DNA of 64,000 nt from Azolla caroliniana (GCA_043228905.1 JBHGNT010000021.1:11284001-11348000); one strand, 5' to 3'; shown: positions 6,935-64,000, numbered from the stretch's first letter. Program-made: numbers and translations. The notes: generated by a model not told the origin, from the sequence alone.

Positions 6935-6989
6935 GAGACTTGAACCCGTAACCTCACACACCAAGGATAAAGCATATACCATTAGGATA
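6935..6989 (-). promoter_or_regulatory. tRNA-like Pol III A-box/B-box module, antisense in D LTR U3 (copies near 9867-9921 and 30934-30988)
   Basis: Minus strand TATCCTAATGGTA...AGGTTACGGGTTCAAGTCTC with tRNA-like box spacing. Confidence 0.55.
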
Positions 6990-7715
6990 AGTTATTTTCT
7001 ATAATTATATTTTTATCACAATACTTATGACATGTCTATCTTCATACATTAGAGCTTAGATGAGCATGATGGCTATCATGCATCACATGTAAAGCATGTG
7101 CCCCAAATGGAAATCATGCATCACATGCATCCCATGCACCCCCATATCATCATATGCATGAGAGAACCTATAAAGAGAGGCAAGGAATTAAGGGATGGAT
7201 CAAGGGGAAAATAGGGTAATCAATCAAGAGAGAGTGAGAAAATAATACAATCAAGTAAAGAAGATTAGCCATTGGGTGGAGAACGTCTTGTTTCGAAGTT
7301 GAGGTCATGGGTTCAAATCAAGGGTCGGTAGAGAATGTGTTCAGTTTGCGATCAAGGATTGTAAAGTTGGTAAAATGTTATATTTTTAATATACATCATG
7401 TTTATATCATATACTCTTGTTCCTTGATTCATACTTTGTGTCAATCTTCCTTCTTAAATCATATTTTGTGTCTATCTTGCTTCTTGAATCATATATTGTC
7501 TCTATCTTCTATCTATTCTCATCTCTCTCACACACACACATTACTCGCAACTCTTCTTCTTGCTACTCTTAACCTTTCTACATCACCATACAAGCCTTAT
7601 TAAAATTTAAGTTCCTTCAACTCCCCTTAACCTTCGTCCCTGCGACTTCGCCGCACGAACCACAACTACCCCGACACATTTGGTGAACCCGACGTGAAGG
7701 CGGCGACGAGGAGAA

Positions 7716-9764
7716 ATGGAGGAGCAAATGAGGCTTATGTGTACGATGATGGAACGAGTGATGCGGGAACAAGGGATGATGGCAAGCATCGACAAAGTCG
7801 TTGACAATATTCTCGCACGAGTAGGAATCTTCGAAGGTATAAATTTAACAAGATTTCTGAAGATTTATAATGAAGAAATGCTTAAACGTGGTATCGACGA
7901 AGCTGCAAAAATTAATAGCTTTAGTCGAGTCGCTGCGATTGGGCTACAAGAAAGGATCCATGAGCTACAGAGGGAACATCAGACATGGGCGACTTTCGAA
8001 AGAGCATGGCTAAATGAATACAACCTCAACGATATGTCAAGGATGACAAGGCGAACTTTCATGGATTGGGTAGAGTCTTATAAACATTTAAGTGTTTTGG
8101 AAGTATTAAAAGAGTTTTCGGAAAGATTTGAGCAACTAAATGTTAGAGATAGAAATATAATAGTGCCAGATAAAGTAATATTGTTTCTACAAGCTACTAA
8201 TATTAAAGACAGGAAGGACTTGGGAATGCTTTTAGAAGATTAGAATAGTCCAAGTGGACTTACTGAAGATTGGGAGGAGGTGAAAAGGGCCTGCGCCCAT
8301 TTCTGCAAAAGAAAGTTATGGTTTATGGAGTTGCCCGACAGAAATGATGAAGAAACTGGGAACGAGTCAGGAGAAAAGAAAGTAGAAGAATCACTCTTAC
8401 ACGAATTGGTGAAAGGCATGAAAGACTTGTCGATCAAAGTGACGAAGCTAGAATCGGGACAAAGCTCGACTTCATCAAGGCAGGGAGGTGGAATGGTCCG
8501 AAGGTGTATGTGGTGTGATAGTATCGACCACCAAAAGAAAAACTGTCAAGAACATAGGAATTCTCTTAATCATGATAAAATCTACTATCAAGATGGAAAG
8601 ATTCACTCGACAAAGACTCAACAACCAATCCAGCTCAACTTCGGGAAAGGTGGAATGAAAAAGCTAATGGAAGATGCTGAGAGAGAAACAACTCAAGCGA
8701 TACAATCCGTGACAACCTTAGGGTTGCGTGTAGAAGACTCATATGGTGGATCTAGTTTTTGGCAAGGTGTGATGGAGTATGCAAGAAAAGGGAAGGTTCA
8801 AGTGAAGGAATTAAAAAGCGTGGGTGATGAAATACGGAACTTCACTGGATGGAATGATCCAGTAGACACACTATCAGCATTTGCCCAAGTGAATGTACAA
8901 TATGCACTAGTGGAAGAGAAGCGAAAGAGAGCTGAGGAGGCTGATTCGGCAAAGAAATATGAGACAGAAAAACAACTTCAGAGAAGAGAGATGGAAAAGG
9001 ATGCTCTTGAGTCAAAAGAAGCTAATAAAGTCAAAGGGAAGATAGACCCAACTTTTAAGCTTGCTTCGGACACAGAAGCCACGACGGATATAAAACATGT
9101 CATGGAAGAAGTTACGAGAGAATGTGCAGCAACAAGTCTCCAAGATTTGGATCATGAATCCATCAATATTGCAGGTGTAAAGAAGATAAATGATGTTGGG
9201 ATTCATGAAGGGGATAGGAGTCATTATACAAAGAACCATTGGGCTCAAGCAACAACGGAGGCGCCTACAAAAATTACGGAGCAACAGATTCCTTGTATTG
9301 CTTTGATAGATCATGGATCAGAAATTAACATGATGTCGTCGGAATGTTGTGCTCAAGGAAGGTGGCCAATCGATAAGAATCATGGGTCGAAGAAAAGAGT
9401 TACAACAGAGATGATGGAGGATCAATTCGGAGCATGTCCCAGTGTGAAAGCAACAATGGGAGATGTGTTGGTGGATGAAAATTACTATGTGCAAGATGGA
9501 TCAACCTACCCTGTCATCCATGGTCAACCATACATCAGCGTAGTGAGTATGGAAACAAAGGATGGTGAACCATACATCAACGTAGTAAGGATGGAAAGAA
9601 CTGTGATTAATGATGATTCAACTTTCGCGAGGATCAAGAGTCAGGATGGAAGGAAGAGGGGCCATATCTTAACCATGATGCCTAACCATGAAAGAAACAA
9701 AGAATGCTTGAGGGGACATCCAGTTCAGAAACGGAATGAAGAGTTTTTCCAAGACTTTGGATGA
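7716..9764 (+). pseudogene. gag: Gag-protease of D with one in-frame TAG at 8241-8243
   Basis: ORFs 7716-8243 and 8280-9764 share a frame. CMWCDSIDHQKKNC knuckle and ALIDHGSEIN protease; colinear with the E gag-PR. Confidence 0.88.
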
Positions 9765-10197
9765 ACTTTGCACAACTAGTGTGCAAGTTCAGAGGGGGTG
9801 GGTGTCGTGAAGGATTTGATTCACGATATAAAAATAAACTTGAATATTGTATTAAGTAACATTTGAGAGACTTGAACCCGCAACCTCACACACCAAGGAT
9901 AAAGCATATACCATTAGGATAAGTTATTTTCTATAATTATATTTTTATCACAATACTTATGACATGTCTATCTTCATACATTAGAGCTTAGATGAGCATG
10001 ATGGCTATCATGCATCACATGTAAAGCATGTGCGCCAAATGGCAATCATGCATCACATGCATGCCATGCACCCCCATATCATCATATGCATGAGAGAACC
10101 TATAAAGAGAGGCAAGGAATTAAGGGATGGATCAAGGGGGAAATAGGGTACTCAATCAAGAGAGAGTGAGAAAATAATACAATCAAGTAAAGAAGAT

Positions 10198-10252
10198 TAG
10201 CTCATTGGGTGGAGAACGTCTCGTTTTGAAGTTGAGGTCGTGGGTTCAAATC
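10198..10252 (+). promoter_or_regulatory. Second, sense tRNA-like A/B-box module in the D LTR (copies 7266-7319 and ~31277-31330)
   Basis: TAGCTCATTGGGTGGAGAAC...AGGTCGTGGGTTCAAATC. Confidence 0.6.
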
Positions 10253-12567: not shown

Positions 12568-13297
12568 GATTAGCTTGAGGGGGAGTGTTGAGCATCAAGC
12601 TCAACCGGAGCCGGATCGGCTGAATAAGCCTGAGCCGGTAAGCGAGACGAATCGGTATGCCGGTGAGCAACCGAGCTGGTAAGCAGTAAGGACCGGTAAG
12701 CAAGAGGAGCCGATATGCCGGATCCAATCCGTAATCGGAAGCCTAGTATAGGTTAGACTACTAGGCAGTTATAGTCTCGTAGTTAGTGTCAGATGCTCGT
12801 GTGAGCATTGAAGTACACCGTACTTCTAACAGAGCACAGAGTATTAATATAATCTTGAAAAATAGAGTGTTTTGCTCTCTCACTCTCTGTCTCTCCCGCG
12901 TACTCTCTCTCTCTCTCTGTGTATATTGTTCTTTATAACGCTTCCGCAAGCAATCTTTTACAATATCCGACTAGCTTCCCAACTATACCGTGTCGGTATA
13001 ACAATCCCCGGTCCTTCGTGCCGCTCACATATCGCAATAGTCGATGCGTGCACTGAAGGTACTCCATGGTCGGCTTTGGCATCAATTGGCTTATCACCCG
13101 ACTGGATAACTGATGCCAGGTCGAGTGATCATCAAGTATATATGGCTTCCGACAATTTGTCAGAACCATTTCTCATCGCAGGTCGGGCCGAAGTCGGGAC
13201 GTAACTTCAGGTTCCGGTCCATGGGTGCGGAGATCAGTCGACATTCCGTCATGCCGAACTTGTATAACATATTCAACACATAATGTCATGATATGGA

Positions 13298-13352
13298 AAG
13301 ACTCGAACCCATGACCTTATGTTACATGGGTCGAGCTCTTACCATTAGGCTA
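13298..13352 (-). promoter_or_regulatory. tRNA-like A/B-box module, antisense at the U3 start of G/L LTRs (copies ~38847-38900 and 61510-61564)
   Basis: Minus strand TAGCCTAATGGTAAGAGC...AGGTCATGGGTTCGAGTC. Confidence 0.65.
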
Positions 13353-15009
13353 TGTATTGTAATACGAAGGATATTATTTTCATTTATGTTTTACTATAGA
13401 AAATTTATGTATATTCCAGATTTCTCTAGGACATTCTAGAAACTTCAAGAGTACTCTTGAGAACACTATAAAAGGAGGCACAAGGCATTATTTTGAACAA
13501 AATCGGTTCAACGCTAGTCTTAAGACTCTTAGCTACTGTTGTATTTTCCCTTAACATAATATATCTTTTGTTATCCTCATTCTCTCTCTCTCGATCTCTC
13601 TCTCCCCCCCTCACTCTTTCCTTCCCTCGAGAGTTCTACGCCTCCCTTTGTACTAATCCTCATCTTTTAGTACTAATTCCTTCTCTGTTTTAGTACTCCA
13701 CTTTGTGGCACGGCTTTGGCCTGGTTCGCCCCCCTATTAGAAAAAAGCTCTCGCTTGTTAATTAATTTCGAAGAGTTTATTACCGAGTTTAAAGCTTGTT
13801 TTGGAGATACCAACAGTGTTAGAACAACAATCAACAAAATCCGAAGATTGCACCAAGGTGAGAGGCCGGCCTCAGCTTATGCTGTAGATTTCTATCTTCT
13901 CGCCACCGATATTCCCTAGGATGACCAGGCACTAATGGAGCAATCTCGTTTTGGCCTATGTAATCATGTTAAAGCTTTACTTTTAACTTTCCATGAGGAG
14001 CCAAAGTAATTGACAGAAGCAATCAGTCGTGCGGTGCGATGCGATAATTGTCTCTTTGAACAATGTTCGGAACATCAGTTTCCAATGCCTAGGACAAGAT
14101 CAGAGCCCAACTATGCTTCAATCGTAACAAAGCCTTTTCCAAAGGAGTCATTCAATACGTCTCCAACAAATACTCTGACTCCAATGGAAATCGACACCAC
14201 ACGTCATCACGGACCACTATCGAAAGAAGAAAAGCAGTGACGTAGGTCAAATCGGTTATGTCTTTATTGTGGTGGACTGGGGCATATTGCAGTGAACTGC
14301 CCCTATCGGCTGAAAAGGCAGGTAAATCAAATAATCACTAGTTCTAATAGTACTAAACCCGAGTCTATTTGTCTAGGTGTGTTTGATAGTCCTAATAGCC
14401 CAAGCCTTTCAAAAAATTTGAAATCCTTAGTCAACTAGAAGAAGAGTTAAACGATTAAGTCCACCCAAAATGGGAGTCGTTTGGTTGGACAACCCTAGAT
14501 CTGTGCAGCCCATTAGTGGTTCCATTTCCTCTAAGCAAGTTAGCAATGTTACCACTAGGGCCAGACAATGGCCTAACATAGGGTGTCCCTTTGAGGCAGT
14601 TCACCAAAGGGGTGTTGCGGTGAGATAGAGTTAGACCGACTATTAATGGAACCCTAATTGGTTACTAGCGGCAATATCATTAGTCACAATACACGCATAG
14701 GAAAAATTACACTTAACACAGAATGGTAATTAACAATGATTAAGATATAGAACAACAACACTGTATTAATTATTCGATGATGATTACAATCTACGAACCG
14801 CCGGTCCGGATCCGGATCGACATACCAACTCCGGGTCCGTCCATTCGCTTCTCAAAATCATAATAATTCTATATTGTAACATTATAACTAATCAGCTCCC
14901 AGTTATTAATTATCCCCCTTTTCCCATTCTGGACTTCCCTTGCAGGCCGTCTAACACATGACACGCCCGTGGGACAGTACCTTGTACATCGAAGACCACG
15001 ATCCGGCCT

Positions 15010-18000
15010 TCATTCTTCCTCCAAAATGTCCAAAATTCTTTGATCTAAGGGTTCTAATGGTTCCTTGGGAATCTGTACTGTCGTCTATTGCTATTGTTGT
15101 TCCTCCTCCTCCTGTTCCTGTGGCTGTGGCTGCTCTTCTTTCCGCTACGGTGCCAACTGAGGTTGCTGCTGGTTGACATCCATTGCCTGCGGCTCCATTG
15201 GTCTGACCAGCTTTGTCTCCTTTTCTGGCTCAACCGGCCTTGGCGTCTCCTGGCTCTGTTGTCCGGTGTGCACCGGTTCCTATGGATGACCTTCCTCTAG
15301 CGGCTCCTCCTGAGTACTCTATGGTTGGCTTCCCCCGGCTTTAACCGGCGTTTGTTCTTAAGATGGCTCCTCGTCACTGATGCAAATCGCCGCTGTTTTC
15401 TTGGCCACTTCTTGCCGTCGTCGTTCCCATTCGTACTTTTTGAAACAGAGTCGGTTGTCCAACTAGTCATCATCCAGTTGTGCCACCAACTAGCGTACCG
15501 CCACCCTCTGCTCATCAACCAAGGATATGAAATCATCCGCAAGTTCCTCTTTTATTGCTTCAATGCTTTCTTTATCCAGGATGTAAACTTTGTCGCCCTC
15601 TTTCCACTGGTTCTCCACATCTTCCCGTAGCAATTGTAGCTCTACTGCTTGCTTAGCCCACTTCGACCACCATTGTACTGAGCTTTCTTCCACCAATTGC
15701 TTGATTCGATTCCTCCATGCCAGTACAATGTCCTGGATCCGCCCCAACCCCATCTTCGACTTGTTTCCCATGGCCTGTTTTTCGTCCTCCAATTGTTTGA
15801 TCAGGCTTGCGGTTGCCACTTCTTGGCTTCTGTAGTGCATGAGTTGGGTCTGATATGTCCTCCGAACTCTGTCCAGAGCCATTGTAGCGCGCTCCGTTTT
15901 CGCATGGTGCTGCACTTGCAGGTCCAATCGCTCTTTCGCTGCTGCCGCTAGTTGTTTCGCTTGTTCAACTCCCTTCGACTGCTCTTCCATCAATGTCATC
16001 GTCAACTGGTTAACTTCCTCTTGGAGTTCTTTGCAATTTTCATGCTGCCGGTCACTTTTGGTAGTCAATTTCTTATGATCGGCATCCAAATGCTTATAAT
16101 CCCGGTGCAGTCGGTTGAAGTCGTCGGTTTTTTGTTTGAGCTTTTGATTGATCAGCTGGCGAGCGCGGTCCTCACGGTCTTTTTGTTGCCGGAGCTCTTC
16201 TTTGAGGCGCTCAATCTCTACTTCTGCCATCCTCCAAAGTTTCTCTTTTTCTTGTAGGAGTTTGTCTTTCTCTTCTTTCAGCCAGTCATACGCTTGATGA
16301 CCTCTTCTCAAGCTTTCCTCTGTTCGGCAGAGGCTGTCGGCCGTTCTCCTTTGTTCTTCCTCCGCCGCTTTTTTCAATTCTCGTTCCCTGGCTCGTAAGG
16401 CTTCTTGTGCTGCCAGGTCTTCCCTTAGTGTGGCGAGCTCCTGTGCTAACGATTTATGAGTATTTGGGCGTGCCGCCGTCACAGGGGTTTGATCGTTCTG
16501 TAGAGTTACCGGGGCCACCGGTTCCGATTGCTGCGGTCCTTCTATGACCAACTTGGCCATTTTTGTTCTGGCCTTCTCTATGTCTTCTTCCATGCTTCGG
16601 ATTCTTGACCAGGCCATCTCTAATTCCTCGGTTGTGGCTAGCAACCGGGCTTCTTGCGCTTTCTCTTTCGCTTCTAACTGGCAGACAACACCAGTCACTT
16701 GTTCTGCTACCCATCGGAGCCATCGACTGCCGGTGCCTTATGGTCATGCCGAGTCTAGTCGTGGGATGCCGTTTTCACTATTCACGAGCCTACTATTGAC
16801 GGTTACGTCACACGGCCGCTCCGGTTCTGGCTGTTGCTGCTGCGACGGTGATGCGGGCAATTCAATGACCGGTTCTTGATCCACTGGTACTGTCGTGTCC
16901 TGGACAGCTGGTTCCATGATGTCCTGCCGCCGCACTTGCTCCGTCCCCGATTCTTGTTGAGCCAGTTCTGTTGCCTTCCTCGGTTGCGGCTCCTCAGGGA
17001 GGGGTTCCCGTATACTGTCCTCTGTTAGCTTGGATGTCCCCCCTTCATGGCCCTTTTCACTTGTCTCGCGACGCCGTAGTAGGGTCTCGGTCAGCTCGTC
17101 TTCCTGCTGGTCTTCTTCTAGGGTCTTGTTGTTGATTAACGCCACCAAGGGGTCCTGCCCCTGCGTTTTCTCCAGTTGCTGTTCTGCTTGTTGTTCCGAC
17201 AGGCGCAACTTGATTTTCAATGGTCTCCCCGAGGTGTCTACCGATGCCTCCTTCTCTTCCAGCCGCTTCCGATTAGGCCGTTCCTTCACCTGGGTAGCCA
17301 GGAGTTGCCGCCGTTTTGAAGTTGCTTTGGGGGTTGATTCTGTCGGTCTTCCCCTCTTCCTCTGTTTCATGGGCTCCACCGGCGGTGCTAATAGAGTGAG
17401 CCATTGCGCCACTGTTGTCCACATCTTTTTGCCCTCTTTTATTAAGACGATGGCAACGCTCAGGCCGTCAGCAATCATTACCAGCCAATCCACCTGTACT
17501 TCCTCGTAGGTGGCTATGATCAAACTGGCTCTACTCCTGGGCATCGTCGGTGGTCGGGGGTATACATGGCCATACTCGTGGAGTACCCGAGCAATTTCCC
17601 GAAACAAAAGGTCTTCACCGCCTTTCGTGCGGTACGCCTTGCTGCCCAGGGAGTAATCCCCAAAATACCTCGTCAACAGATTCTGCGAAGGGTTGTCGAT
17701 CGAGTAGATTCCCCCTTCCGGTAAGCCGATCATAGCTCGGATGGCTTCCTCGGTGATGAACTCCGTGTCGATATCTTTAACGACATTTTCCGCATCTCCA
17801 TGCGGTGGTGCTTCAACTATTTGCAAGAATCCCTCTAGACCGTGTTGCTTCAACCATTTCTTAGCCGCTTCTGAGAGTACCATGCATTCCATGTCGTCGT
17901 TGGAGTCGGTAGGTTCTGGTAAGATGGGTGCGCTTGTGTGTTTTGCGTGCTCTCGCCTGATCACTCGTAATCGCCTGTGTACGCCGAGATCTCTATGTTC

Positions 18001-18045
18001 ACAAAATGAAAGGGACTCTGCGCGCCGAAGGTTTTCTTTCTCCAT
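15010..18045 (-). pseudogene. Extra ORF of F, ~1011 codons in one frame, broken by nonsense codons: globular N-terminus, linker, long coiled coil, acidic tail
   Basis: The 433-aa ORF, the 402-aa ORF and the tail to TGA at 15010-15012 share a frame. Stops are TGA/TAA/TAG, consistent with C>T changes. A homologue lies at 1-582. Confidence 0.8.
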
Positions 18046-18490
18046 GCGTCACACCTTTTCTTGATTCCCGTGCATGCACGTCCGGTACTGATATAGCAGT
18101 CGGTTGACACGTGGTGCGCCTTTTTTTAAAGGCTTTAATTAGCCACCCACCACACCTTTTCAAAGTTCTCGTTCGCTCCTTGCCTCTACATGATGACTTT
18201 TCTTTCTTTTTTTCTTTTTTTCTTTTTTTCTTTTTTCTTTTTTTCTTTCCAAATTGAGTTTTAGTTAACCGGAAGCACCTGTTTGTCGTTATCCGGTAAT
18301 GCCGGCTCTGTCTGACTGTTGGGTACTTCTTTCCTGCTTCCTACTGTTGTATTCGCCTCCATCTACTCGAACGGATTTCGTGGCATAGGTCCACAATATG
18401 GTTTGAGTCGAAACCCATTGACCCATTTGCTCAGTATCTCATCGGCGAGCCTTCCAAGCTGGTATGAACCGTTGAGTTCCCGTGTTATTC

Positions 18491-19327
18491 GCACACTACG
18501 TGAAAAAGTGCATTTATTGGTCTCTCCGGATAGGACATGGAGTACCTGGTGAGAACCGGAAGGAGGAACCAGTAAGGACCGGACCCGGTAAGGAGACCTG
18601 GTGAGAACCGGATGAAGAAGGTCGGTGAGAGTCTCTCACCGAATGAAGAGACATATTTGTAAATAGAAGAAAGTATTAAAATATATATTCCATGCATAGG
18701 GCAATATTCAAACCTTGCACCTCCATGTTTATAATGTAAAGCCTTACCATTACACTAACATATCATTAGTGTTAAAAAAGTAAACGTCCCACATAGAAAG
18801 GTAAGTTCACGCTAGGATAAACTTTAGTTAGAAGAAAAAGCATGATAAAAGAAAAAGCTACGCATGCACATGTAGCGTGCATGAACACCATAATCGATAA
18901 AAACGCATCAAGTTAGAAAAGGTGGATCACTTTAGAAAAAGCAAGTTAGAGAAAGCATAGAGTCTATCTATAGAAAAAGCATGGATTGTTAAGACTCTCT
19001 CATCACTATATAAGGATGAGGGTATGTGAAATATTTAGGAAATTGGATATATTTCCTAAAACACCTATAATTAATCAATTATATTCGTGGGATTCACGAA
19101 GGTTTCCATATCTCTCGCTCCCAATCTATGATAAATTGTTATTAGGATTCTAAATATTAATAAATCTAATAATCTATACTTGTGGGATTCACAAATTTCT
19201 ATATCTCTTTCTTATAATCTATTCATATTCATATTCTTATTAGCCTTAAAACTCTCCTCCTCCTAGTCTAAAACCCCAACGGTTCCCACCAGACTCACGC
19301 AACTATCTGGTGCCGAAAGGCACCACA
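18491..19327 (+). repeat. Solo LTR, family M (left end deleted), inserted in F integrase
   Basis: Similar to 40532-41363 (CACTACGTGAAAA, GTGGGATTCAC repeats, end GCCGAAAGGCAC.ACA); splits RWIGP|..ITRELNGSY. Confidence 0.85.
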
Positions 19328-20486
19328 ACGGTCCAATCCACCGGAACCGTAGCTTTCCCGGCATCTGACCCATCCGGGTCTGGAACACTAGTACCGGCTT
19401 GCCGATCCCGAACACATCTTCTCGTTGCCCTTCCGGTGTTGATCGAGAAACGCCTTCCTTCGTCACTGCTCTAGTTCCAACTACATGAGACTTGCTATCT
19501 AATGCTCCTCGAGTTCGCATAATGCGGCTAACCGGATTTTTTCCAATTCCTTTTCACTTAGTTGTTCTCTAACCTATATCCGCAAACTTAGAACCTGAAA
19601 TTCGATTGGCATTATTGCTTCAAGCCCAAATGCTAACTGGAATGGTGTTGATCGGATACTCGTTTTGTATGTCGTCCGGTATCCCCATAGTGCACTATGC
19701 AGCTTGGTGTCCCAATGAGTTCGGTTTTCATTGACGATGTCGAGATATTACGCTAGTGCGTATAGAAACGAGGCGGGACCGCGGGGGTCTTGAACCGAAG
19801 AGCAAGCGAGGGTGGAGAAAGAGAGAGGACCGGTTACGCGGGACCGGGGATACACAGGGACACGGCCCTTCAACACAGAGAACGCGAACAGACGTCGACA
19901 CAGGTAGACGCAAACAAATGAATATAAATGTATATATATGAGCAAATATCTGATCAAGAAGCTACAACCCGCGATGGGGCACAGGATGGTTACAACCGAA
20001 CAGGCCGGCGAACAGATGCCGATGCCTGTTCGCTGTGTCGCACAAAAGGGAGCAGGTCGGAGGTGCTGCCGGAAGCACTCAGGCGTTCCTCGGAACAGCG
20101 CGAGCCTCCTCGAAAACCCTGCACAGGAAAAGCTATGGAGGAAAAGAAGGAGAATAGAGAGCGAAGCGTCCAGAATCGGTCCGACAGCACTTCGTCCTCT
20201 CTGCGCGATCCCCCCCGTTCTCCCCCGTCCTCCTCCTTTTTTTTGTCAAGAAGGAGCCGTTCGGCATTAAATTCCTACCTACCGTATCTAACCACTTCGA
20301 TCCTCCTAGGTACCTAATTCGCCTCTATGTACAACTTGGCGCGCACGTGCGTGAAGAGCCGGTTCCCACGCCTCGGTGCCCCAATTCCACCCTTGGACGG
20401 TTTTCTTCACGACATCCGCCCCCACCTAACCGCGCATCCACCGGCATGCGCCAAATTAAGTTGGGACGGAGAAAACCGGCCCGCCT

Positions 20487-23400
20487 TCATTCTTCGCCCA
20501 TCGGTCCTTCCTCGGTCTCGGATCGGTCGTCGCTGCTGTCTAGGAGAATCGGGTCTGGCTCGTCGTGGTGTCGCTTCTTGAAGGCTTTGATCCTCTTTCC
20601 AGCCACGGGTATCGCCATTCTCGTGCCGTCGAGTTCCGCCAGGTGATACGTCCCGTTGTCGTTGGCGCTTTGTACCGCGTACGGCCCAAACCATCTCCGC
20701 GCGAACTTCCGTGTAGCCCAATGCTGGTTGTCGAGGCTGCTGTCGTAGACGAGCACCCAGTCACCTTCCTCGATCTTCTTCGGTCGGAGCCGGTGCGTTC
20801 TGTCGAACCTGGCTTTGTTCTTTGTCCTCGCCACCCGGAGCTTCTCCGAAGCTAGCTCCACGTCCTCTGGTCTCCGCTCGAGTTGTCGTATACACGCGGC
20901 CAACAACTCCTCCCGGCTCATCTCGTCCCTCCAGCCGACTGTTGCCCATGAGGAGATCGTCCGTTCCATCGGCATGATCGGTTTCTGGCCGAACATGAGC
21001 TCCGTCGGCATGTACCCAGTTACCGAACTCTGCGTAGTCCGGTCTGCCCACAAAGCATAAGGTAGCAGCCGCGGCCAGTTACCGACTTGGCCTCCGCATG
21101 CCCGAACCAGCGCCTTGACGATCGGCCCGTGTCCGCGCTCCACCTTTCCATTTGCCTCCGGATTGTACGCAGTGGTGAGCGAGAGCTTGACTCCCAGCCG
21201 GTCGAACAGCTCCGCGGCTTCTTCGGCGTCCAACTCCCCTCGGTCAGCCACGATCTTTCCGACGCACCCGTACCGGCATATCACGTCCTCGATTAGGAAC
21301 CGACATACGGCCACGGTCGTTTTGTACTGAAGGGCTCGGCCTTCCACCTGGTTCGTCAGATCCTCCCGTGCTAGGACCAGATACCGCATCTGTCCTACCC
21401 CCATTGGCATCGTTACCAAATCTACCATCCATTTGAAGTGGATGGTCGGAGGGTACGTAGGGTGAAGCTCATCCCGGTGTCGGACTACGGAGTGCATCTG
21501 ACAATTTTCGCAAGTCGTCACGAACCGACGCACGTCCCGGTACAATCCCGGCCACCAATACTTCCCCTTTAGTTTCTCGAATGTGGCCCACGTTCCACGG
21601 TGTCCAGCCCAAGGGCTGTCGTGGTAGGCCGCCAGTAGCTCCTCCTGTTCCTCCTTCGTCGCCACCACCCGGAGCAGGACGCCGCTCCTCTTCTTCGGGT
21701 GTTTCCATAGATAGCCATCCCGGAGAAAGAAGCGGTACGCTTTCTTCCGGATCCGGTTGGCCTCGTCTTTCGTCCATGACGCATCCGGCGCCATTGTCCT
21801 CAAGAACCCGCCGATCCGCAGCCACTCCCCGTCGTACTTGCTCGCGTCGAAGTCGTTAAGCACCGGAGTGCTCGTCCCGCCTGTTGTTACGTATGCTGCC
21901 TCGAAGAAGTCCATGCCGACCTCTTCGTCCTCCGACACCATGCCGCCCTCGTCATCGAACCTCGCCCTCGAAAGCATGTCGGCCATGGCGTTGTCTTTCC
22001 CGGAAATGTGTCGTATTTCCGGGTCCAGGGACTTGATGTACGCTATCCACCTGAGCATTGCCAGGTCCGGCGTCGCGCATCCGGAAACCATGCCGAGAAT
22101 TGGCAGGCAATCCGTCTCGATAATCACTTCTGTCCCGATCAGATAGTCTTTGTCGGCCTTTACCGCCGAAACGATACCCCAGAGTTCGCGCTTAACCTGG
22201 GCGTATCCTCGCTGCCGCTCACTAAGGACTTTCGCGTCGAATCGGATCAGAAACCGATTGCCATCCTCGTCTTGTTGGTTGACGACCCACCCGATTCCGG
22301 TCGGACTCGTGTCAACCGTTATGTATACTGGGGTGCCCTTCTTGTAGACGGCCTTCCGGAGCGCCGGTGCTGCCGAAAGAGCCTCCTTCAGCTTCCGACC
22401 GACTCCGTGTGCTCGTCAAGCCATTCGAACCTTCGCCCTTTCTTCAGCAACCCGTACAGCGGCTCCACGACGTGTGCATAATGCGGGATCCATATGTGGT
22501 AGAACGCGCATGCTCCCAAGAATCTTCGTACTTCCGTGACCGAGCTGCAGTCGGGCTTCATCGCGGAGATGGCTTCTACCTTTGCCGGAGACGGTTTCCG
22601 GCCATATGGCCCACATAAGTGTCCGACCACCATGATTTCCGACTGCCCGAAGGCTGATTTCTCCCCCGAGAAGGTGAGCCTCGCATCCTCTAGCCTTTGC
22701 AGCACCTTCTCGCAGTCGTCGATGTGCGTCGCCACGAATCGCCGACATCCGTCCGGCCCGATCGTCTCATCCTTCTCTGCTACCGGGCATCCCTTGATCG
22801 GGACGTCGTCCAGAAACGGCATGGTGATGTCCGGGATGCAGTCCCTCAGAACCTTGTTCATTGCATTCACCATGTGGGCCACCGAGTTGGTCCCTCCTTG
22901 CGGCAGCGTACACATCCACACTAGGCCGAGGGGAGTTCGCATCGTCGTGATGTCTCTGCTCTCCACGGCTAGCTGGAACTGGTCGTACCCTGAGTATAGA
23001 TCACCGACCGAGTAAATCGACCTTCCGGCGAAGGCCTCTGCGAACTCGTCTATTGTCGGTCCGATCCCTGCGTTCCGAATGGTCACCCTATTGACCGGTT
23101 GCAGGTCCTGAATGAAGCGCAATGATCCGTTTTTCTTTGGTACGGTAAACCATCGGTTTGAATACGGGGCGCTCGATGGCTCGAGAATGCCCATATCAAC
23201 TTTCTGCTTCAACAGCTCCATCAACTTAGGGATGTGAGCTCTCGGAACCGGAATTGGCTTGAGATTCCACGGTACATGCGGTACCGTGAATATCACAATC
23301 GGCTCTACGATTGTCGGGTCTACGCACCCGATTTCCTCCGGTGAGAATGCGAAGGCTTTCCCGTGCCTTCCGAGCATTCTCCGAAACCGGTCTTCCTCCG

Positions 23401-23968
23401 CCGGTAGTAGGAACCCGCCCCCACCGATTTTGAGCTCCCGGAGCGTCTCGTTGGTGAAGGTGTGTCCTATGCGGGCCGGATCTCGTAAACTGGGGTTTGA
23501 CGCAACCCCTCTGATCCGGGACTCGCTGCCCTCCGGTAAGGGTGCCGCGACTGGCCTTACCTTCCGGTCCACAGTCTTGTACTTTGTGCTCACTCGGGCC
23601 GTCCGATCCGACCCGAGCCCCCGACTGAAGTCCGCGATGACTTCGTACATTTCTTCGGAACATACCGGTATCGTCCGGTCTTCGTTAAGGTCTTCTTCGA
23701 CTACCTTCCCCAGCATTCCCAAGGTGTCGTCGAAGGAGACCGCCTCCATGGCTCCGTTGATTTCCTCGTCAGGGCCGAGAACTCCGCACGCTCGAAGTCT
23801 CCCCTCCGTCCTTGTCTTCTCTCGGCCGGCGATGCCGACTATCGTACATGCTCCGCTGTCGGAGAAGCAAAATTTCCTACCTATTGTACACGGTCTTATC
23901 GTACAGATGTGAGGTTTTCCCGGAGCATCCAGACTGTCGCGGCCCCACGCCTTGGCAGTCCTCTCTAA
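20487..23968 (-). pseudogene. pol: RT-RNase H-integrase of E in the -1 frame, with a single 1-nt deletion near 22397
   Basis: LPQG..FLDD, VDTSP (RH), H..GH..C..C and DDE integrase motifs. The frame is open from the end of gag; GTCGGAAGCTG would read VRKL with one more C. Confidence 0.9.
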
Positions 23969-26310
23969 AAATCCTCTCGTTTTTCGGAACCGAGGGAGTC
24001 GTGGTTACGTTCGTGGTTCGGCCGTACCGTCAGAAACTGGACCGAATGGCGCCCGTCCTGGCTTTTGACCCTTGCATAGGCCGAACCGTTATTCAGCACC
24101 TTGGTCTCCATTCGCGCCGCCGTGATGTACGGCTCTCCCAATATTACCGGATGCGAGGACGTCTCCTGTACGAAGAAGTGCTGGTCAATTTCGACATCGC
24201 CGATCTTGACCCGTACATTTAGGCAGGCCCCGTGCAGTTCCTCGGTGGCGCGCGTCGCCGCCCGTATCTTCCACCCGTGATTGGTGTTGATCGGCCATTT
24301 GCCCTTCTTGTAGAAGTCCATGGACATTAGGTTGATCTCCGAACCGTGGTCCACCAAAGCTACCACCGGTTCCTGGACATCTCCGATCTTCACCGGGGTT
24401 TCCGTGGTTGCTCGGGCCCAGTGTGGCCTCGAATAGTGGCTCTCCGCCCACTCATCTTCCAGCGACATGTCGTCTAGGTGCGTCATCCGCACCTCTACCG
24501 GTCTTTCCGGTTCTACCTCCGTTGACAGCCTCTTCCGCTTCACCAAGTCCACGATGGAGTCGTGGAACTCCTTCCTGGCGATTCCTAGCACTTCCCGTAA
24601 TGATAGTTCCACCTTGCTGTCGAGGATCCGTTCTTCTAGGACCTTCCGCAGGTCCGTGGTCCTCTCTATTTCCGTCCCCAGTCGGTATCCGCCCTTCCTG
24701 GGGTTATCTTGCGCACTAGACCCGCCGGCCTCGTTCCGTCGTTGCCCGAACCGGGTCTCGTATCGTTGTGAGGGCCCGGTCGTTCCGGTTTTCCCCACCC
24801 GCTTCTCTTCTACCAGAGCCTCGTAGTTCTGGCAGGCGGCTTCCACGAAGCCCGTCTTTTCCTCGACCGGGTCGCTCCACCCGGTTATCTCCCGGACCCG
24901 TTTCTCCGCACGGTCCGCTTCGTCCCCTTTCAGCCGCGTACCGGCGAGGCCTTCCAGCATCGCCGACCACAATCCGGCTTTGCTTTCCTTTTGGGCCTCG
25001 TTGCCCCCAACCCGAATGCCGGCCAACGCCGAGTAGTGGACGGTTTCCGCATGTCGGGCCGCCGCCTCTTCCATCAGTCTCTTCATTCCTCCTCGCCCGT
25101 CGTTTCGGTTTAGGGCCCTTCTGGTGTCGCTGGCGTGCACCCGGCCTTCCCACAGGTACACCACCCGGTTCTTCAGCGCCTCCACGAAATCGCCGCAGTC
25201 CTTCCGAATGTGGCCGACCTCGTCGCACCACATGCATCTGCTTCCCGCTGCCGGCCGTCGGTCGCGAGCCGGTTCGCCGCCTTCCCTGCGGGCTTGTGCA
25301 ATTTGGAGGTCCTTTATCGCCCTCGTCAACTCCTCTAGCGCGGCTCCTCCGGTCGAGCCTCTGATCACGCCGGTCGAAGCTGAACCGGTTTCCAGCCACT
25401 CCCGGGTCTCTCCCTTTCGCACCGGCTGCGCCGGTTCAAGCTTCCTTGCTGCGACCGAGCCCGACCCGGTCGCCCCGTTATCCGCCCATTCTCGCCGCTT
25501 GTTGAAACGGCCGCAGGCTCTCTTAACCGCCGCCCAGTCGGTCGTCAGCCCGTCTTCGGTTTCCAGCAGGGCGCCCACGTGATCCCGATCCCGCTCGTCC
25601 ACCGACTTGACGAACAGTAGGACCCGGCTTGTATCCAGGATCGTTCGGTCAAGCGTCGAAAGGCGCGCAAAGTTTTCCTCAAACTCCCGGAGGAGTGCCG
25701 ACGCGTTTCTTCCCTTCCCGGGGAACTCCACCCATTCCATGAAGCTTCGTTTCGAAAGCCGGAGCGCATCGTCCAGCCCGTATTTCTCTAGGAGCCGACC
25801 TTCAAACTCCTCCCAGGTACGGCTCTCAGCCCGCACCTCGAGCACCTCCGCATGGATGCTCGGCATCGCCACTCGGGGAAATCCGACAAGACGCCTTTCT
25901 TCCGGAATGTCCCGCATCAGCATCTTTGCACCGTAGGACGCCAAGTACTTCGTGGCATCCTTTCCGCTGAATCGGCCGATTGTACCAACGACCGCCTCAA
26001 TGGCTCTGTCGAGGGCGCCGGAGCCCTCGCGTGCATTTACTAACCGGTCAACGGCCGAAGCCATGGCTTCTGCCAGATCCGATCCCCTCATCTCCTGCTC
26101 TTCTGCCGCCTCTTTCACGTCGGGTTCACCAAGATGTCGAGATATTACGCTAGTGCGTATAGAAACGAGGCGGGACCGCGGGGGTCTTGAACCGAAGAGC
26201 AAGCGAGGGTGGAGAAAGAGAGAGGACCGGTTACGCGGGACCGGGGATACACAGGGACACGACCCTTCAACAAAGAGAACGCGAACAGACGTCGACACAG
26301 GTAGACGCAA
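23965..26310 (-). CDS. gag: Gag-protease of E (true start probably downstream of the PBS, near 26090)
   Basis: CMWCDEVGHIRKDC knuckle; ALVDHGSEIN..ILGEPY protease. Confidence 0.9.
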   Translation of the reverse strand: MRLPVSTSVRVLFVEGSCPCVSPVPRNRSSLFLHPRLLFGSRPPRSRLVSIRTSVISRHLGEPDVKEAAEEQEMRGSDLAEAMASAVDRLVNAREGSGALDRAIEAVVGTIGRFSGKDATKYLASYGAKMLMRDIPEERRLVGFPRVAMPSIHAEVLEVRAESRTWEEFEGRLLEKYGLDDALRLSKRSFMEWVEFPGKGRNASALLREFEENFARLSTLDRTILDTSRVLLFVKSVDERDRDHVGALLETEDGLTTDWAAVKRACGRFNKRREWADNGATGSGSVAARKLEPAQPVRKGETREWLETGSASTGVIRGSTGGAALEELTRAIKDLQIAQARREGGEPARDRRPAAGSRCMWCDEVGHIRKDCGDFVEALKNRVVYLWEGRVHASDTRRALNRNDGRGGMKRLMEEAAARHAETVHYSALAGIRVGGNEAQKESKAGLWSAMLEGLAGTRLKGDEADRAEKRVREITGWSDPVEEKTGFVEAACQNYEALVEEKRVGKTGTTGPSQRYETRFGQRRNEAGGSSAQDNPRKGGYRLGTEIERTTDLRKVLEERILDSKVELSLREVLGIARKEFHDSIVDLVKRKRLSTEVEPERPVEVRMTHLDDMSLEDEWAESHYSRPHWARATTETPVKIGDVQEPVVALVDHGSEINLMSMDFYKKGKWPINTNHGWKIRAATRATEELHGACLNVRVKIGDVEIDQHFFVQETSSHPVILGEPYITAARMETKVLNNGSAYARVKSQDGRHSVQFLTVRPNHERNHDSLGSEKREDF

Positions 26311-26815
26311 ACAAATGAATATAAATGTATATATATGAGCAAATATCTGATCAAGAAGCTACAACCCGCGATGGGGCACAGGATGGTTACAACCGAACAG
26401 GCCGGCGAACAGATGCCGATGCCTGTTCGCTGCGTCGCACAAAAGGGAGCAGGTCGGAGGTGCTGCCGGAAGCACTCGGGCGTTCCTCGGAACAGCGCGA
26501 GCCTCCTCGAAAACCCTGCACAGGAAAAGCTATGGAGGAAAAGAAGGAGAACAGAGAGCGAAGCGTCCAGAATCAGTCCGACAGCACTTCGTCCTCTCTA
26601 CGCGATCCCCCCCGTTCTCCCCCGTCCTCCTCCTTTTTTTTGTCAAGAAGGAGCCGTTCGGCATTAAATTCCTACCTACCGTATCTAACCACTTCGATCC
26701 TCCTAGGTACCTAATTCGCCTCTATGTACAACTTGGCGCGCACGTGCGTGAAGAGCCGGTTCCCACGCCTCGGTGCCCCAATTCCACCCTTGGACGGTTT
26801 TCTTCACGACAACGA

Positions 26816-38415: not shown

Positions 38416-38838
38416 TTGGATTATCAGCGATTAGGTCCTTTCTGTATTATCCGAAAGATTAATGATGTTGCTTTTCGTCTCAATCTACCTCCACAGCTAC
38501 GGATACATCCCGTGTTCCATAGTTCTCTCCTAGAACCCTATCAGGACAACACCATCCTAGGTCATATTAAACCACCTCCACCCCCGATCGAACTTGAAGA
38601 TGGACCTGAGTACAAGGTTGCCGCCATCCTCGTTTCCAAGCTTGTTCGCAACAAGCTCTACTATTTAGTCGATTGGTTAGGATATAGTCCCAACGAGCGT
38701 ACCTGGGAACCGATAGAGAATGTGACCAATGCTCATGCTCTTCTTGAAGTCTTCCATTGTCAATATCCAGACAAATTGGGTCCTCAATCCAAAACTACTT
38801 GTGACACTCGTCATTTTAAAGGGGGGATAGTGTCATGA
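38416..38838 (+). pseudogene. Integrase C-terminus (GPF motif) with chromodomain of G
   Basis: GPFCI..IHPVFHSSLL then PEYKVAAIL..YYLVDWLGYSPNERTWEP, a classical-type chromodomain. Confidence 0.9.
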
Positions 38839-41363: not shown

Positions 41364-41445
41364 ACATGTGCCAGCTGTACTAGTCGATGAAAGAGACGAA
41401 ATACCGACTCCCGCCAAGACTAAGGTTCTGTGCCGGTCCCCATAC

Positions 41446-61006: not shown

Positions 61007-61362
61007 TGTTGAGAATGAAATTCAAATTCACTTGTGTGGGAACACACTCTAGGATACTCAAGTGTGTGATCACCTCACCTCCTTGTATAGTAACTAGTGT
61101 GTCATAGAAGTTAATATCCTATGACACATATTCTTGAAGTAGTTAAGACTTGACCTCTTTCCCAAGAGGCTCCTCGAGTGAGAGAATCTAGAGAGAAGGT
61201 TTGTACATAAGCACCTTCTCCTTCTCTTTATAACTGTTGGTCATTCTTGTTTCCTTATAATACAATTTTTTGTTTTTCTGTAATCTTGAGTTCTTTCTCT
61301 CTCTCTCTCCACACACACAGACACATACAGTTCTTCCACTGCACAGAATCCATCTGATTTTT
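61007..61362 (+). repeat. Degraded solo LTR related to the 2486-2949 Copia LTR
   Basis: Starts TGTTGAGAAT and shares the TGTGTCATAGAA..CTATGACACA inverted repeat; the 3' end and TSD are not resolved. Confidence 0.6.
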
Positions 61363-61495
61363 ATTTTTTTCCCATTACTCGGGAAAAAATTCAGGAGGTA
61401 TCATATGTACAAGGGCCAAGCCTCATATAGAGCTCCTTGGCTTCGATTAACACTAAACTAGAGGGATCCTTCTACAATCCCTTAGGCACGATGGG

Positions 61496-64000
61496 TGTCA
61501 TGATATGGCAAGACTCGAACCCATGATCCTATGTTACATTGGTCGAGCTCTTGACCATTAGACAATTTGTTGTAATACGAAATATTTTCATTTAAGTTTT
61601 ACTATAAAAAATTGATGTATATTCCAGATTTCTCTGGAACATTCTAGAAACTTCAGGAGTACTCCTGAGAACCCTATAAAAGGAGGCACAAGGCATTATT
61701 TCGAACCAAATCGGTTCAACGCAAGTCTTAAGCCTCCTAGTTACTATTGTATATTCTCTTAACATAATATATATCTTTTGTTATCATCATTCTCTCTCTC
61801 TCTCACTCACTCACTCTTTCCGTCTCTTCAGAGTTCTACACCTCCCTTAGTTCTAATCCTCATCTTTTAGTATTAATTCATTCTCTGTCTTAGTACTGTT
61901 CCTGACAATACTTCTCTGTCTTAGTACTAGTCCTAATAGTTTGAATTGATTTCTCCTTCCTTCTCTTCCTTTATCTTCTTACTTCTCCTTCCCTTCATAC
62001 TAATCTCTTATTCCTCTTTTCTCTCATACTATGGCCACTGTTAGCGCCCAAGAATACCAATCCGTTTTTTTGGACTTGCAATGCTTGAAAGAGATGTTTC
62101 TCACATTGGAACAAGAAAATCAACGACTGTTGGGGGAGCTTCAACAAATCTCCTTAGAGAGGCAACATACGCAACAACAACACGGGGAACTAGCGTTACG
62201 TGTGCAACAGCTCAAAGCAACCATAGTAGCAATTCAACAACAAGGATCCAATACGCAAGGGATTCATAAAGAACCCAAGATCCGCCTTTCCATGAAATTC
62301 GATGGAACGTGATCGCAGTTTAGAGGATTCCATAATCAGGTACGATTAGTCATTCAATTGCATCCTTCCTGATATCACACCGATGCATCACGAGTAGGTT
62401 TAGTAGGCACGTTGTTAAGTGGCTTAGCTTTGGCATGGTTCACTCGGTTGTTAGAAAAGGAATCTCCTTTACTAAACAATTTTGAAGAGTTTTTAAGTGA
62501 GTTTAAAGCCTGTTTTGGAGATACTGACACCATAAGGACAACAATCAACAAAATCCAACGATTACGTCAAGGTGATCGTCCAGCCTCCGCATACGCTGCA
62601 GATTTCCGCCTACTTGCCTCCGATATCCCCTAGGATGACAAGGCACTTATGGAGCAATTTTGTTATGGTCTACGTAATGATGTCAAGGATTTACTCTTGA
62701 CCTTCCCCGAAGAACCAAATTCATTGATAGAAGCAATCAGTCGTGCGGTGAGATGCGACAACCGTCTCTTCGAACGACGTTCGGAATGTCAGTTCCAGAT
62801 GACACGAGCAAGATCAGAACCCACCTATGCCTCAGTGGTAGCAAAACCTTTTCCAAGGGAGTCATGTAACACGTCTCCAGTGAATACTCCAACTCCGATG
62901 GAAATTGACAGTACATGTCGTCACGAACCATTATCGGAAGAAGAAAAGCAGCGATGCCAAGCAAATTGACTATGTCTTTATTGCGGTGGACCAAGGCATA
63001 TTGCAATGAACTGTCCCCATAGGCCAAGAAGACAGGTGAACCAAATAGTTGCTACTTCTAATTGTACTAAACCCGAGTCTATTTCAGTAGGAATATTTGA
63101 TAGTCCTAATAGTACTAATAGCCCAAATCTAACGAACAAATTTGATGTCCTTAGTTAGTTAGAAGAAGAGCTAAACGACTATGTCTAACCATAATAGGAG
63201 CCGTTTGGTTGGACAACCCTAGATATGTGCAGCCCATTAGTGTTTCCATTCCCTCTAAGCAAGTTAGCAATGTGTTCTTAGCCCAAGTAATCGTTAGTAC
63301 TAAAAGTACCTCTCCAGTACATGTCTCAGCACTTCTAGATTCCGGAGCTAATTCTTGCTTCATGGATAGGAATTTTGCCCAAGCTCATCAGATATCCCTA
63401 AGAAAACTCCCATGTCCAACCTCTGTAGTGATTATTGATGGTCATCCCATTGCTTCCGGAAACATCATAGAAGAGTCAGAGCTCGTTAATATTGTCCTAG
63501 ATAATTTAGCGTGTGTAGTATCCTTTAATATAATTTGTATCCCTGAACATCCCATTGTTTTGGGATTACCATGGTTCGAATTATATAACCCATACATAGA
63601 TTGGAGAACAAGGGAAGTCCGGTATCAACAAACCCGAGGATCTACTCATAAGATTGCAACCATTTCGCTACATCAGTTGCGTGAGGAAGGATGCAAGGAA
63701 GAAATGTTTCTGTTCAAAGTATCAGTAAAACCCTCCAACACCACTAAAGAGGAGTCCACCATTCAACTTCCCGAGAAGTATCTTCATTATGCCGATGTGT
63801 TCGATAAAGTACAAGCCAATACGCTTCCTCACCATCGACCGTATGATTGCCCCATCGATTTACAATTGGGAAAAGAGCCACCATAGGGACCGATCTACAA
63901 TTTGTCACTAACCGAGCTAGAAATTCGAGCCTATATAGAGGAGAATTTGGCAAATGGTTTCATTCGACATTCGAAATCTCCAACCGACACACACATTTTC
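61496..64000 (+). mobile_element. Gypsy L, chromovirus of the G family: 5' LTR 61496-~61938, degenerate gag, PR, start of RT (runs off window)
   Basis: LTR matches G; PTPMEID, ALLDSGANS and LPHHRPYDC motifs. Confidence 0.92.

What the first reader, a model, noticed from the sequence alone, without database searches (positions are those of the whole stretch)
6935..61564. tRNA-like Pol III promoter (A-box/B-box) modules in the U3 of three dissimilar LTR families
Seen: an antisense ~55-nt module near the LTR 5' end in chromovirus G/L (13298-13352, TAGCCTAATGGTAAGAGC..GGTCATGGGTTCGAGTC), family D (6935-6989, TATCCTAATGGTATATGC..GGTTACGGGTTCAAGTC) and family M (40637-40692, TAGTGTAATGGTAAGAC..GGTGTAAGGTTCAAATC). 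In all three there are exactly 45 nt from the A-box T to the TTC of the B box, as in tRNA genes. The sequence between the boxes and the rest of the LTRs are dissimilar, and acceptor and anticodon stems are not kept. Established: A/B boxes bind TFIIIC, tDNAs can act as heterochromatin barriers in yeasts, and Cassandra TRIMs carry 5S-derived Pol III promoters in their LTRs. Inference: these LTRs recurrently carry a tRNA-type promoter as a silencing barrier or outward Pol III promoter. I do not recognise this as described.
Basis: partly seen in the sequence, partly recalled or inferred. Interest (0 to 1): 0.82.

Follow-up and report, generated by a model that had tools for sequence, protein, structure and literature searches.

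The report
Backward tRNA promoter guards retrotransposon edge
Two unrelated groups of jumping genes in a moss-like plant keep the sequence signals of a tRNA-gene promoter, facing outward, at the outer edge of their terminal repeats; these signals likely bind the RNA polymerase III machinery and would shield the element's own promoter from silencing chromatin.

Summary
Confirmed and wider than reported. G/L is a self-priming Tcn1-type chromovirus; D and M are Phygy-like, so these are two lineages, not three. Of 77 loci chosen by integrase alone, 48 carry the antisense module: 47 of 58 in G's group, 1 of 19 outside it. Across 18 families the boxes and tRNA positions 44-48 stay 61-79% identical at fixed 45/46-nt spacing, while the spacer is at 30-37%. 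tRNA stems do not covary. A 60-nt AT-rich zone lies just upstream, as at plant tRNA genes. It is therefore a selected, promoter-like DNA element, neither a tRNA nor a SINE relic. TFIIIC binding and barrier function are inferred, untested. My searches found no description; the closest are Helenus/Cassandra TRIMs and foamy-virus LTRs. Earlier unchecked scan notes report tRNA-type boxes in LTRs of probably fungal genomes.

The parts
6937..6989 (-). Antisense A/B module, D 5' LTR (tRNA positions 8-61)
   Evidence: 36.7 bits, spacing 45; T5 run 34 nt past the B box, inside the LTR
9869..9921 (-). Antisense A/B module, D 3' LTR
   Evidence: 36.0 bits
30936..30988 (-). Antisense A/B module, D solo LTR
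   Evidence: 33.0 bits
7266..7319 (+). Second, sense A/B module in D 5' LTR, about 100 nt downstream of the TATA-like box at 7168
   Evidence: 27.9 bits, nearly all from the B part (A part 0.6); T5 63 nt further on
10198..10252 (+). Sense A/B module, D 3' LTR
   Evidence: 34.9 bits, spacing 47
31277..31330 (+). Sense A/B module, D solo LTR (worn A box)
   Evidence: 21.1 bits
13300..13352 (-). Antisense A/B module, G 5' LTR, B box 16 nt from the LTR end
   Evidence: 43.1 bits with a matrix that excludes the G family
38849..38900 (-). Antisense module, G 3' LTR (A box worn)
   Evidence: 26.9 bits, A part -1.4
61512..61565 (-). Antisense module, L 5' LTR (G family)
   Evidence: 28.7 bits, spacing 46
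40640..40692 (-). Antisense module, M solo LTR
   Evidence: 28.6 bits; Rfam tRNA only 12.3 bits
18705..18757 (-). Antisense module, truncated M copy (B box worn)
   Evidence: 22.7 bits
6871..10610 (+). Element D: Phygy-like, gag-protease only, LTRs 6871-7676 and 9803-10610 (98.4% identical), PBS 7681-7697, PPT 9791-9802, 4-bp TSD CCGG/CCAG
   Evidence: ORF 33% identical over gag-pro to element A
30870..31730 (+). D solo LTR, TSD CCGT
   Evidence: 90% to D1
40532..41363 (+). M solo LTR, TGTCG...CGACA termini, TSD ACGT/ACAT
13284..39270 (+). Element G: Tcn1-type chromovirus split by nested insertions; LTRs start 13284 and 38831; 5-bp TSD CATAA; integrase-SH3-chromodomain 37777-38835
61496..61938 (+). 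L 5' LTR (G family), followed by a site complementary to its own R start (self-priming)
   Evidence: duplex -11.7 kcal/mol between the stretch after TATA 61675 and the LTR-internal junction
13353..13412 (-). AT-rich zone upstream of the G A box (predicted TFIIIB site)
   Evidence: AT 0.82 against 0.65 at 80-140 nt
13434..13446 (+). Three-unit heat-shock-element-like repeat in G U3, between the module and the TATA box at about 13466
   Evidence: GAA/TTC pattern 81 nt inside the A box; the name HSE is recalled

Best explanation
The module is a conserved DNA element with the layout of a tRNA-gene (type 2) Pol III promoter, held at the outer edge of U3 and facing away from the element, where it likely binds TFIIIC and TFIIIB and would act as a chromatin barrier that keeps the LTR's own Pol II promoter open. 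Shown: the A and B boxes, the fixed spacing, the upstream AT-rich zone, the loss of tRNA folding and the inheritance through a chromovirus clade. Inferred steps: (1) TFIIIC binds the boxes. (2) TFIIIB sits on the AT-rich 60 nt, which the antisense orientation places inside the LTR, about 110-210 nt from the TATA box. (3) The complex stops silent chromatin spreading in from the flank. (4) Because it lies in U3, reverse transcription copies it to the 5' end of every new insertion. That would pay for elements that land in repeats: Tcn1 through its chromodomain, Phygy at NCGN sites. In D, two modules facing away from each other bracket the TATA box, as two barriers would.
For: Pairwise identity over 153 pairs of 18 families (integrase 67% on average): A box 0.61, positions 44-48 0.79, B box 0.79, spacer 0.30-0.37, flanks 0.35-0.36; composition alone gives 0.26-0.33. 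Spacing is 45 (6 families) or 46 (12) although 40-51 was allowed, while the distance to the LTR end varies from 16 to 63 nt. G46 and T47, which were not scored, are invariant in 18 of 18. No stem pairs better than column shuffles: T 60/90 vs 60.7, D 41/72 vs 41.2, anticodon 34/90 vs 30.9, acceptor 51/126 vs 45.0. AT content peaks at 0.76-0.84 in the 60 nt upstream and is 0.56-0.63 further in; it is higher in 13 of 14 families with enough DNA (p 0.002) and in 9 of 9 window modules checked. Plant tRNA genes show the same 50-nt AT-rich zone (PMC11700998, passages). tDNAs and TFIIIC-only sites are barriers in both yeasts (PMC2040200, PMC3395662, passages). In D-type copies from 4 runs, no variant of 25% or more is listed in either box against 9 between them (24 rows not shown).
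Against: No binding, chromatin or RNA data. The A box is weak at position 10 (G in 5 of 18). CAA lies near the expected start in only 5 of 18. The S. pombe barrier works in either orientation (PMC2040200), so a barrier does not by itself explain why the module is always antisense. Other LTR families in the same window lack it, including element A, which has the same PBS as D and 99% identical LTRs, and chromovirus F, so it is not needed to transpose here. L067 lacks the AT peak. tDNA barriers are shown in yeasts; none of the papers I read shows one in a plant.
Confidence: 0.47

Rival explanations
1. It is a working outward Pol III promoter and the RNA is what matters. From the 3' LTR it would read antisense into the PPT and integrase end; from the 5' LTR into the flank. 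Such RNA could limit copy number or shape small-RNA silencing.
For: Orientation is invariant: the best antisense score beats the best sense score in 18 of 18 families. The AT-rich zone implies TFIIIB, hence possible firing. D and M have T4/T5 runs 34 and 23 nt past the B box, inside the LTR. Foamy-virus LTRs make Pol III RNAs from A/B boxes (PMC3993851, passages).
Against: In the chromovirus clade there is no conserved terminator: the first T4 lies 2 to 910 nt away and inside the LTR in only 6 of 18. The would-be RNA has no conserved sequence between the boxes and no conserved fold.
Confidence: 0.18
2. It is a stress-gated brake. The Pol III complex would dampen the adjacent Pol II promoter in normal growth (tDNA position effect) and let go under heat, when heat-shock factor binds the nearby repeats.
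For: Three-unit heat-shock-element patterns lie 60-140 nt inside the A box in 8 of 18 families (shuffle rate 1% or less each) and in G1, G2 and L. tDNAs can inhibit neighbouring Pol II reporters 2- to 60-fold in S. cerevisiae (PMC2040200, passage).
Against: 10 of 18 families (3 of them with under 100 nt of DNA) and D and M have the module without such repeats. The same paper found no position effect at S. pombe cen1. Release of Pol III under stress is recalled, not looked up.
Confidence: 0.12
3. It is a landing pad: elements that target Pol III start sites insert just upstream of the A box, or the element's own integration complex uses the bound TFIIIC/TFIIIB.
For: Lead from unchecked earlier notes on gut-fungus-like genomes. 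The window is a nest of insertions.
Against: Six of the 7 window LTRs tested align with a relative for 195-200 nt past the A box (M1 had no partner in the set), and 36 of 44 metagenome LTRs do so over nearly all available DNA. No pile-up of loose ends 10-25 or about 73 nt upstream is listed (most rows not shown). The test is weak, since high-coverage contigs collapse rare insertions.
Confidence: 0.09
4. It works as RNA: the genomic transcript's U3 is complementary to the D, variable and T loops of a host tRNA and anneals to it to aid strand transfer or packaging.
For: The conserved positions are the loops that most tRNAs share. Precedents in Ty3 (bipartite primer site) and HIV-1 U3-R are recalled; search did not list them.
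Against: G/L primes on itself, without a tRNA (Tcn1 trait in PMC6317226). G46 and G53 never change to A, nor T47 to C, in 35 distinct modules, although G-U wobble would allow it. Pairing does not predict the upstream AT zone. Positions 20, 47 and 58 are modified in mature tRNA and pair poorly (recalled).
Confidence: 0.06
5. It is a relic of a SINE or tRNA pseudogene that fell into an ancestral LTR and is now a passenger.
For: Kojima proposes SINE insertion as the origin of Helenus (PMC10886601). Old copies lose the boxes (G2, M2, L014, L048).
Against: The spacer is close to saturation while the boxes and their spacing persist, even in the 27 family pairs under 60% integrase identity (A 0.55, B 0.77, spacer 0.27-0.36). 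This rival may still describe the origin.
Confidence: 0.04

Closest known systems
Helenus TRIMs (TRIMp3; Kojima 2024, PMC10886601; parts 1-4 of 6 and searched passages read, supplements not read)
   Same: tRNA-like sequence inside both LTRs, conserved around boxes A and B, not a functional tRNA.
   Different: Helenus are non-coding elements of 311-1263 bp thought to be transcribed from that promoter; the only plant family is in Selaginella. Here the elements are protein-coding and several kb long, with their own TATA boxes. The module faces outward, so it cannot make the genomic RNA. The paper argues autonomous partners use Pol II and are unlikely to share long LTR sequence; it also notes other Repbase LTRs with tRNA-like parts that it did not analyse.
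Cassandra TRIM (as described in PMC10886601)
   Same: Pol III promoter carried in plant LTRs and conserved over long times.
   Different: 5S-derived (type 1), drives the element's own transcript, non-coding element.
Foamy-virus LTR Pol III miRNA genes (PMC3993851; passages read)
   Same: Working A/B-box Pol III units inside the LTR of an autonomous retroelement.
   Different: They make defined hairpin RNAs with terminators. Here no conserved fold or terminator exists in the chromovirus clade.
tDNA and ETC/B-box chromatin barriers of S. pombe cen1 and S. cerevisiae HMR (PMC2040200, PMC3395662; passages read)
   Same: The proposed way of working: TFIIIC, with or without TFIIIB and Pol III, blocks spreading heterochromatin.
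   Different: Those are host loci. ETC sites extend the B box on its 3' side; this module keeps a 5' extension (positions 44-48) and an A box, and it moves with a transposon.
Tcn1 chromoviruses and Phygy elements (Neumann et al. 2019, PMC6317226; passages and one supplementary table row read; Novikov et al. 2012, PMC3350952; passages)
   Same: The carriers: G/L has the Tcn1 traits, D and M the Phygy traits.
   Different: No Pol III element in their LTRs is mentioned in the passages I searched.

Membership tests
Type 2 (tRNA-gene) Pol III promoter | B box at tRNA positions 52-61 | tested here: met
   G53, T55, A58 35/35, C56 33/35, C61 30/35 distinct modules; columns 53-58 were partly fixed by the search pattern
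Type 2 (tRNA-gene) Pol III promoter | A box with 5' T and 3' GG at tRNA-like distance | tested here: met
   T8 17/18, A14 17/18, GG 15 and 17/18, spacing 45-46; position 10 is G in only 5/18
Type 2 (tRNA-gene) Pol III promoter | AT-rich 50 nt upstream (plant tDNAs) | tested here: met
   13 of 14 families, p 0.002; 9 of 9 window modules
Type 2 (tRNA-gene) Pol III promoter | Nearby T4+ terminator | tested here: inconclusive
   Inside the LTR in D, M and 6 of 18 chromovirus families; 2-910 nt away overall
Type 2 (tRNA-gene) Pol III promoter | TFIIIC/TFIIIB/Pol III binding and transcription | not testable with these tools
   No ChIP or RNA data
tRNA gene | Cloverleaf with paired stems | tested here: not met
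   ARAGORN 0; Rfam 12.3 bits at best; no stem above shuffles
Helenus / TRIMp3 | tRNA-like sequence in the LTR | tested here: met
Helenus / TRIMp3 | Short non-coding TRIM (311-1263 bp) | tested here: not met
   D is 3.7 kb with gag-protease; G/L encodes gag, protease, integrase and chromodomain
Helenus / TRIMp3 | Promoter able to make the element's genomic RNA | tested here: not met
   Module is antisense; the D sense module meets a T5 run after 63 nt
tRNA-derived SINE insertion | Own TSD, tail, polymorphic presence, free copies | tested here: not met
   Present in all 8 window LTR copies; of 14 further hits in 325 kb of loci, most are other LTR starts and two look like tRNA pieces. TSD and tail judged by eye
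Tcn1 chromovirus (G/L) | Integrase with chromodomain, no tRNA PBS, self-priming, 5-bp TSD | tested here: met
   Pfam Chromo 42.7 bits; duplex -11.7 kcal/mol; TSD CATAA
Tcn1 chromovirus (G/L) | Placement with named Tcn1 references in an RT tree | not tested
   No named reference was among the hits shown
Phygy (D, M) | 4-bp NCGN TSD and tRNA-Trp PBS | tested here: met
   TSDs CCGG/CCAG, CCGT, ACGT/ACAT fit the table row. The PBS is shared with element A; its assignment to Trp is recalled. M has no PBS here
Phygy (D, M) | RT phylogeny with Phygy references | not tested
   D lacks pol; best named relatives of A pol and D gag-pro are Riccia proteins
tDNA/TFIIIC chromatin barrier | Blocks spreading of silencing in a reporter assay, B-box dependent | not testable with these tools
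   Experiment needed

The most novel reading that the evidence does not exclude
Protein-coding LTR retrotransposons of non-seed plants carry their own portable tRNA-gene insulator. A whole Tcn1 chromovirus clade and, separately, some Phygy families have domesticated a TFIIIC/TFIIIB site at the U3 edge. It is copied to the 5' end of each insertion and lets elements that land in heterochromatin stay expressible. Thousands of copies would then seed the genome with Pol III factor sites and act as mobile chromatin boundaries.
Probability: 0.4. Interest if true: 0.88.

Novelty: new variant of a known kind. Interest (0 to 1): 0.72.

Why it matters
How chromoviruses stay active after aiming at silent chromatin is an open question. 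This gives one short cis-element, conserved across a clade and testable by a single base change in a moss. It also extends Pol III promoters in LTRs from miniature non-coding elements, where they drive transcription, to full-size elements, where orientation rules that job out. If TFIIIC binds, a very abundant repeat would supply many TFIIIC sites in these genomes. The invariant positions 46-47, freed from tRNA folding, also point to a B-box extension worth testing for TFIIIC contact.

Tried and rejected
No whole genome is held, so no genome-wide copy alignment was possible. ARAGORN and Rfam found no tRNA in the window; ARAGORN on 60 of the 77 loci found one tRNA-Asp, away from the LTR. Three scans of viral contigs gave no relatives. 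A scan of prokaryote genomes with the PBS motif gave 120 matches, none called a tRNA, so the primer type was not confirmed from sequence. Sequencing runs: no RNA holder listed, which says nothing on expression. Variant tables from laid contigs are cut (32 and 24 rows hidden) and are used as side support only. The tree is the quick one, the careful search did not finish, 15 loci under 200 aa were left out, and it is midpoint-rooted with no named references. tRNA-stem covariation was tested in register and at offsets of 1-2 nt and rejected; one of 12 offset tests reached 44/5000. A first regex had an error and printed nothing; a first column script stopped midway and was rerun. L039 (A box deleted) was dropped before clustering. 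Literature searches for a prior description. None listed a paper on antisense A/B boxes in coding LTR elements of plants; subscription journals and Repbase notes are not covered.


Full report
Setting. The window is a nest of LTR retrotransposons. The best named relatives of its Gypsy proteins are from Riccia, with closer unnamed metagenome hits, so the host is likely a non-seed plant, probably a bryophyte (inference). No genome is held.

Observation. I built a two-part weight matrix from 17 chromovirus families found in other DNA, leaving out the G family. It gives 11 hits of 20 bits or more in the window, against 0.01 per shuffled window (100 shuffles). Eight are antisense and lie 16-110 nt inside the LTR 5' end: D1, D2, D3, G1, G2, L, M1, M2. 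Three are a second, sense module in each D LTR, about 100 nt downstream of the TATA-like box. Sixteen other LTR or LTR-like stretches score 12.7 bits at most. Nothing folds as a tRNA.

Carriers. G spans 13284-39270 with a 5-bp TSD and ends in integrase, SH3 and chromodomain. Its sister copy L has no tRNA primer site; the sequence at its LTR-internal junction pairs with its own R start (-11.7 kcal/mol). These are the Tcn1 traits in Neumann et al. (PMC6317226, passages). D is a 3.7-kb gag-protease element, 33% identical to the gag-pro of element A and sharing its primer site. D, A and M end in TGTCG...CGACA, and D and M have 4-bp NCGN-type TSDs, as Phygy does (supplementary row). So there are two lineages, and within the Phygy-like one A lacks the module.

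Breadth. To avoid selecting for the module I fetched loci by the integrase-chromodomain end, which abuts the 3' LTR (best 80 of 228 matches, 77 loci). 48 of 77 carry the antisense module, 6 end too soon, 23 do not. Among the 58 ERZ-labelled contigs, whose members in the tree form one clade with G (46 rows, SH-aLRT 95, quick tree), 47 have it and 4 are too short. Of the other 7, three have no LTR after the match, one is cut at the B box, one is rearranged and has a module 154 nt on, and two are worn copies whose tree sisters have it. Among the 19 other contigs only L067 has one, about 160 nt into its LTR. Many ERZ contigs are high-coverage and probably collapsed repeat families, and several may come from the same or related hosts.

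What is conserved. 43 modules cluster into 18 families at 75%. In leave-one-out tests, 17 of 18 beat all 200 shuffles and L059 beat 199; the sense strand never scored above zero. Mean pairwise identity is 0.61 for the A box, 0.79 for tRNA positions 44-48 and 0.79 for the B box, but 0.30-0.37 for the spacer and 0.35-0.36 for the flanks; composition gives 0.26-0.33. The core B columns were partly fixed by my search pattern, but positions 44-48 were not scored, and G46 and T47 are invariant. Spacing is 45 or 46 in all 18 although 40-51 was allowed, while the distance to the LTR end runs from 16 to 63 nt. No tRNA stem pairs better than column shuffles. AT content peaks in the 60 nt upstream of the A box and falls beyond, the pattern reported for plant tRNA genes (PMC11700998, passages) and the place where TFIIIB binds (PMC3395662, passage). 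In D-type copies from four runs, nine variable sites are listed between the boxes and none in them (24 rows hidden). In G-type copies none is listed in the B box; A-box variants are listed at positions 10-12 and, rarely, 16 (32 rows hidden).

Against or open. Position 10 of the A box is mostly not G, CAA is near the expected start in 5 of 18, and the first T4 lies 2-910 nt away. D and M do have in-LTR T runs. Several LTR families here transpose without the module. Nothing tests binding or function.

Mechanism. The pattern says DNA element under selection: boxes, spacing and upstream AT zone kept, RNA structure and terminator not. I put about 0.8 on it being a site for Pol III factors (inference). 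For its purpose I favour a barrier (0.47). It sits at the element's outer edge; U3 copying puts it on every new 5' end; both carriers insert into repeats; and D brackets its TATA box with two diverging modules. tDNA and TFIIIC barriers are established in yeasts (PMC2040200, PMC3395662, passages). The fixed antisense orientation is not required by the S. pombe barrier; here it would place TFIIIB next to the Pol II promoter and avoid head-on sense transcripts (inference). Rivals: outward or antisense RNA (0.18); a stress-gated brake, suggested by heat-shock-element patterns in 8 of 18 families (0.12); a landing pad (0.09; no interruption seen, weak test); pairing with tRNA (0.06; G/L self-primes and wobble variants are absent); a relic (0.04).

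Comparison. Helenus and Cassandra are short non-coding TRIMs whose Pol III promoter is thought to make the element's RNA (PMC10886601, parts 1-4 of 6 read). These elements fail that membership on size, coding and orientation. That paper does note other tRNA-like LTRs in Repbase without analysing them, and I did not read its supplements. Foamy-virus LTRs hold working A/B-box units that make miRNAs (PMC3993851, passages). Searches listed no description of an outward A/B module in coding plant LTR elements. Unchecked notes of this scan report tRNA-type boxes in LTRs of probably fungal genomes, one read as a landing pad and one as a relic; they are leads, not support.

Verdict. Real, clade-wide and under selection; a new variant of Pol III promoter capture by LTR elements. 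Function is inferred. Interest 0.72.

Noticed in passing
window 13434-13446, 38977ff, 61637ff; L001, L005, L009, L012, L017, L019, L031, L065 LTRs: Three- to five-unit GAA/TTC repeats (heat-shock-element pattern; name recalled) in U3 of many families of this chromovirus clade, suggesting heat-inducible transposition.
   Followed up: partly
window 7266-7319, 10198-10252, 31277-31330: Second, sense tRNA-like module in the D LTR; contigs of related organisms cover its B-box region but hardly the stretch before it.
   Followed up: partly
window 6873-6894, 40534-40557, start of A LTRs (26811 downward): D, M and A LTRs all begin with a short inverted repeat that includes the terminal TGTCGT.
   Followed up: no
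window 13305-13330: The G family has a perfect inverted repeat within its spacer and B-box edge, so the module folds into one long hairpin (-25.1 kcal/mol); other families do not share it.
   Followed up: partly
L067:4855-4908 (- strand): An AT-rich chromovirus outside the plant clade has its own antisense module about 160 nt into the LTR; host unknown.
   Followed up: partly
window 15490-18048 (- strand): Two long ORFs (415 and 434 aa) with no Pfam match, coiled-coil-like, between LTR elements; perhaps an extra ORF of a Gypsy element.
   Followed up: no
window 42814-45441: Tandem array of about 8 units of 302 bp inside a Copia-like element, with one related unit at 53008.
   Followed up: no
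L012:2961 (- strand): A further A/B-like hit of 21 bits inside an element, 3.1 kb from the 3' LTR.
   Followed up: no
L028:560-620 (+) and 845-900 (-): Two tRNA-like pieces next to a chromovirus end, possibly organelle-derived.
   Followed up: no
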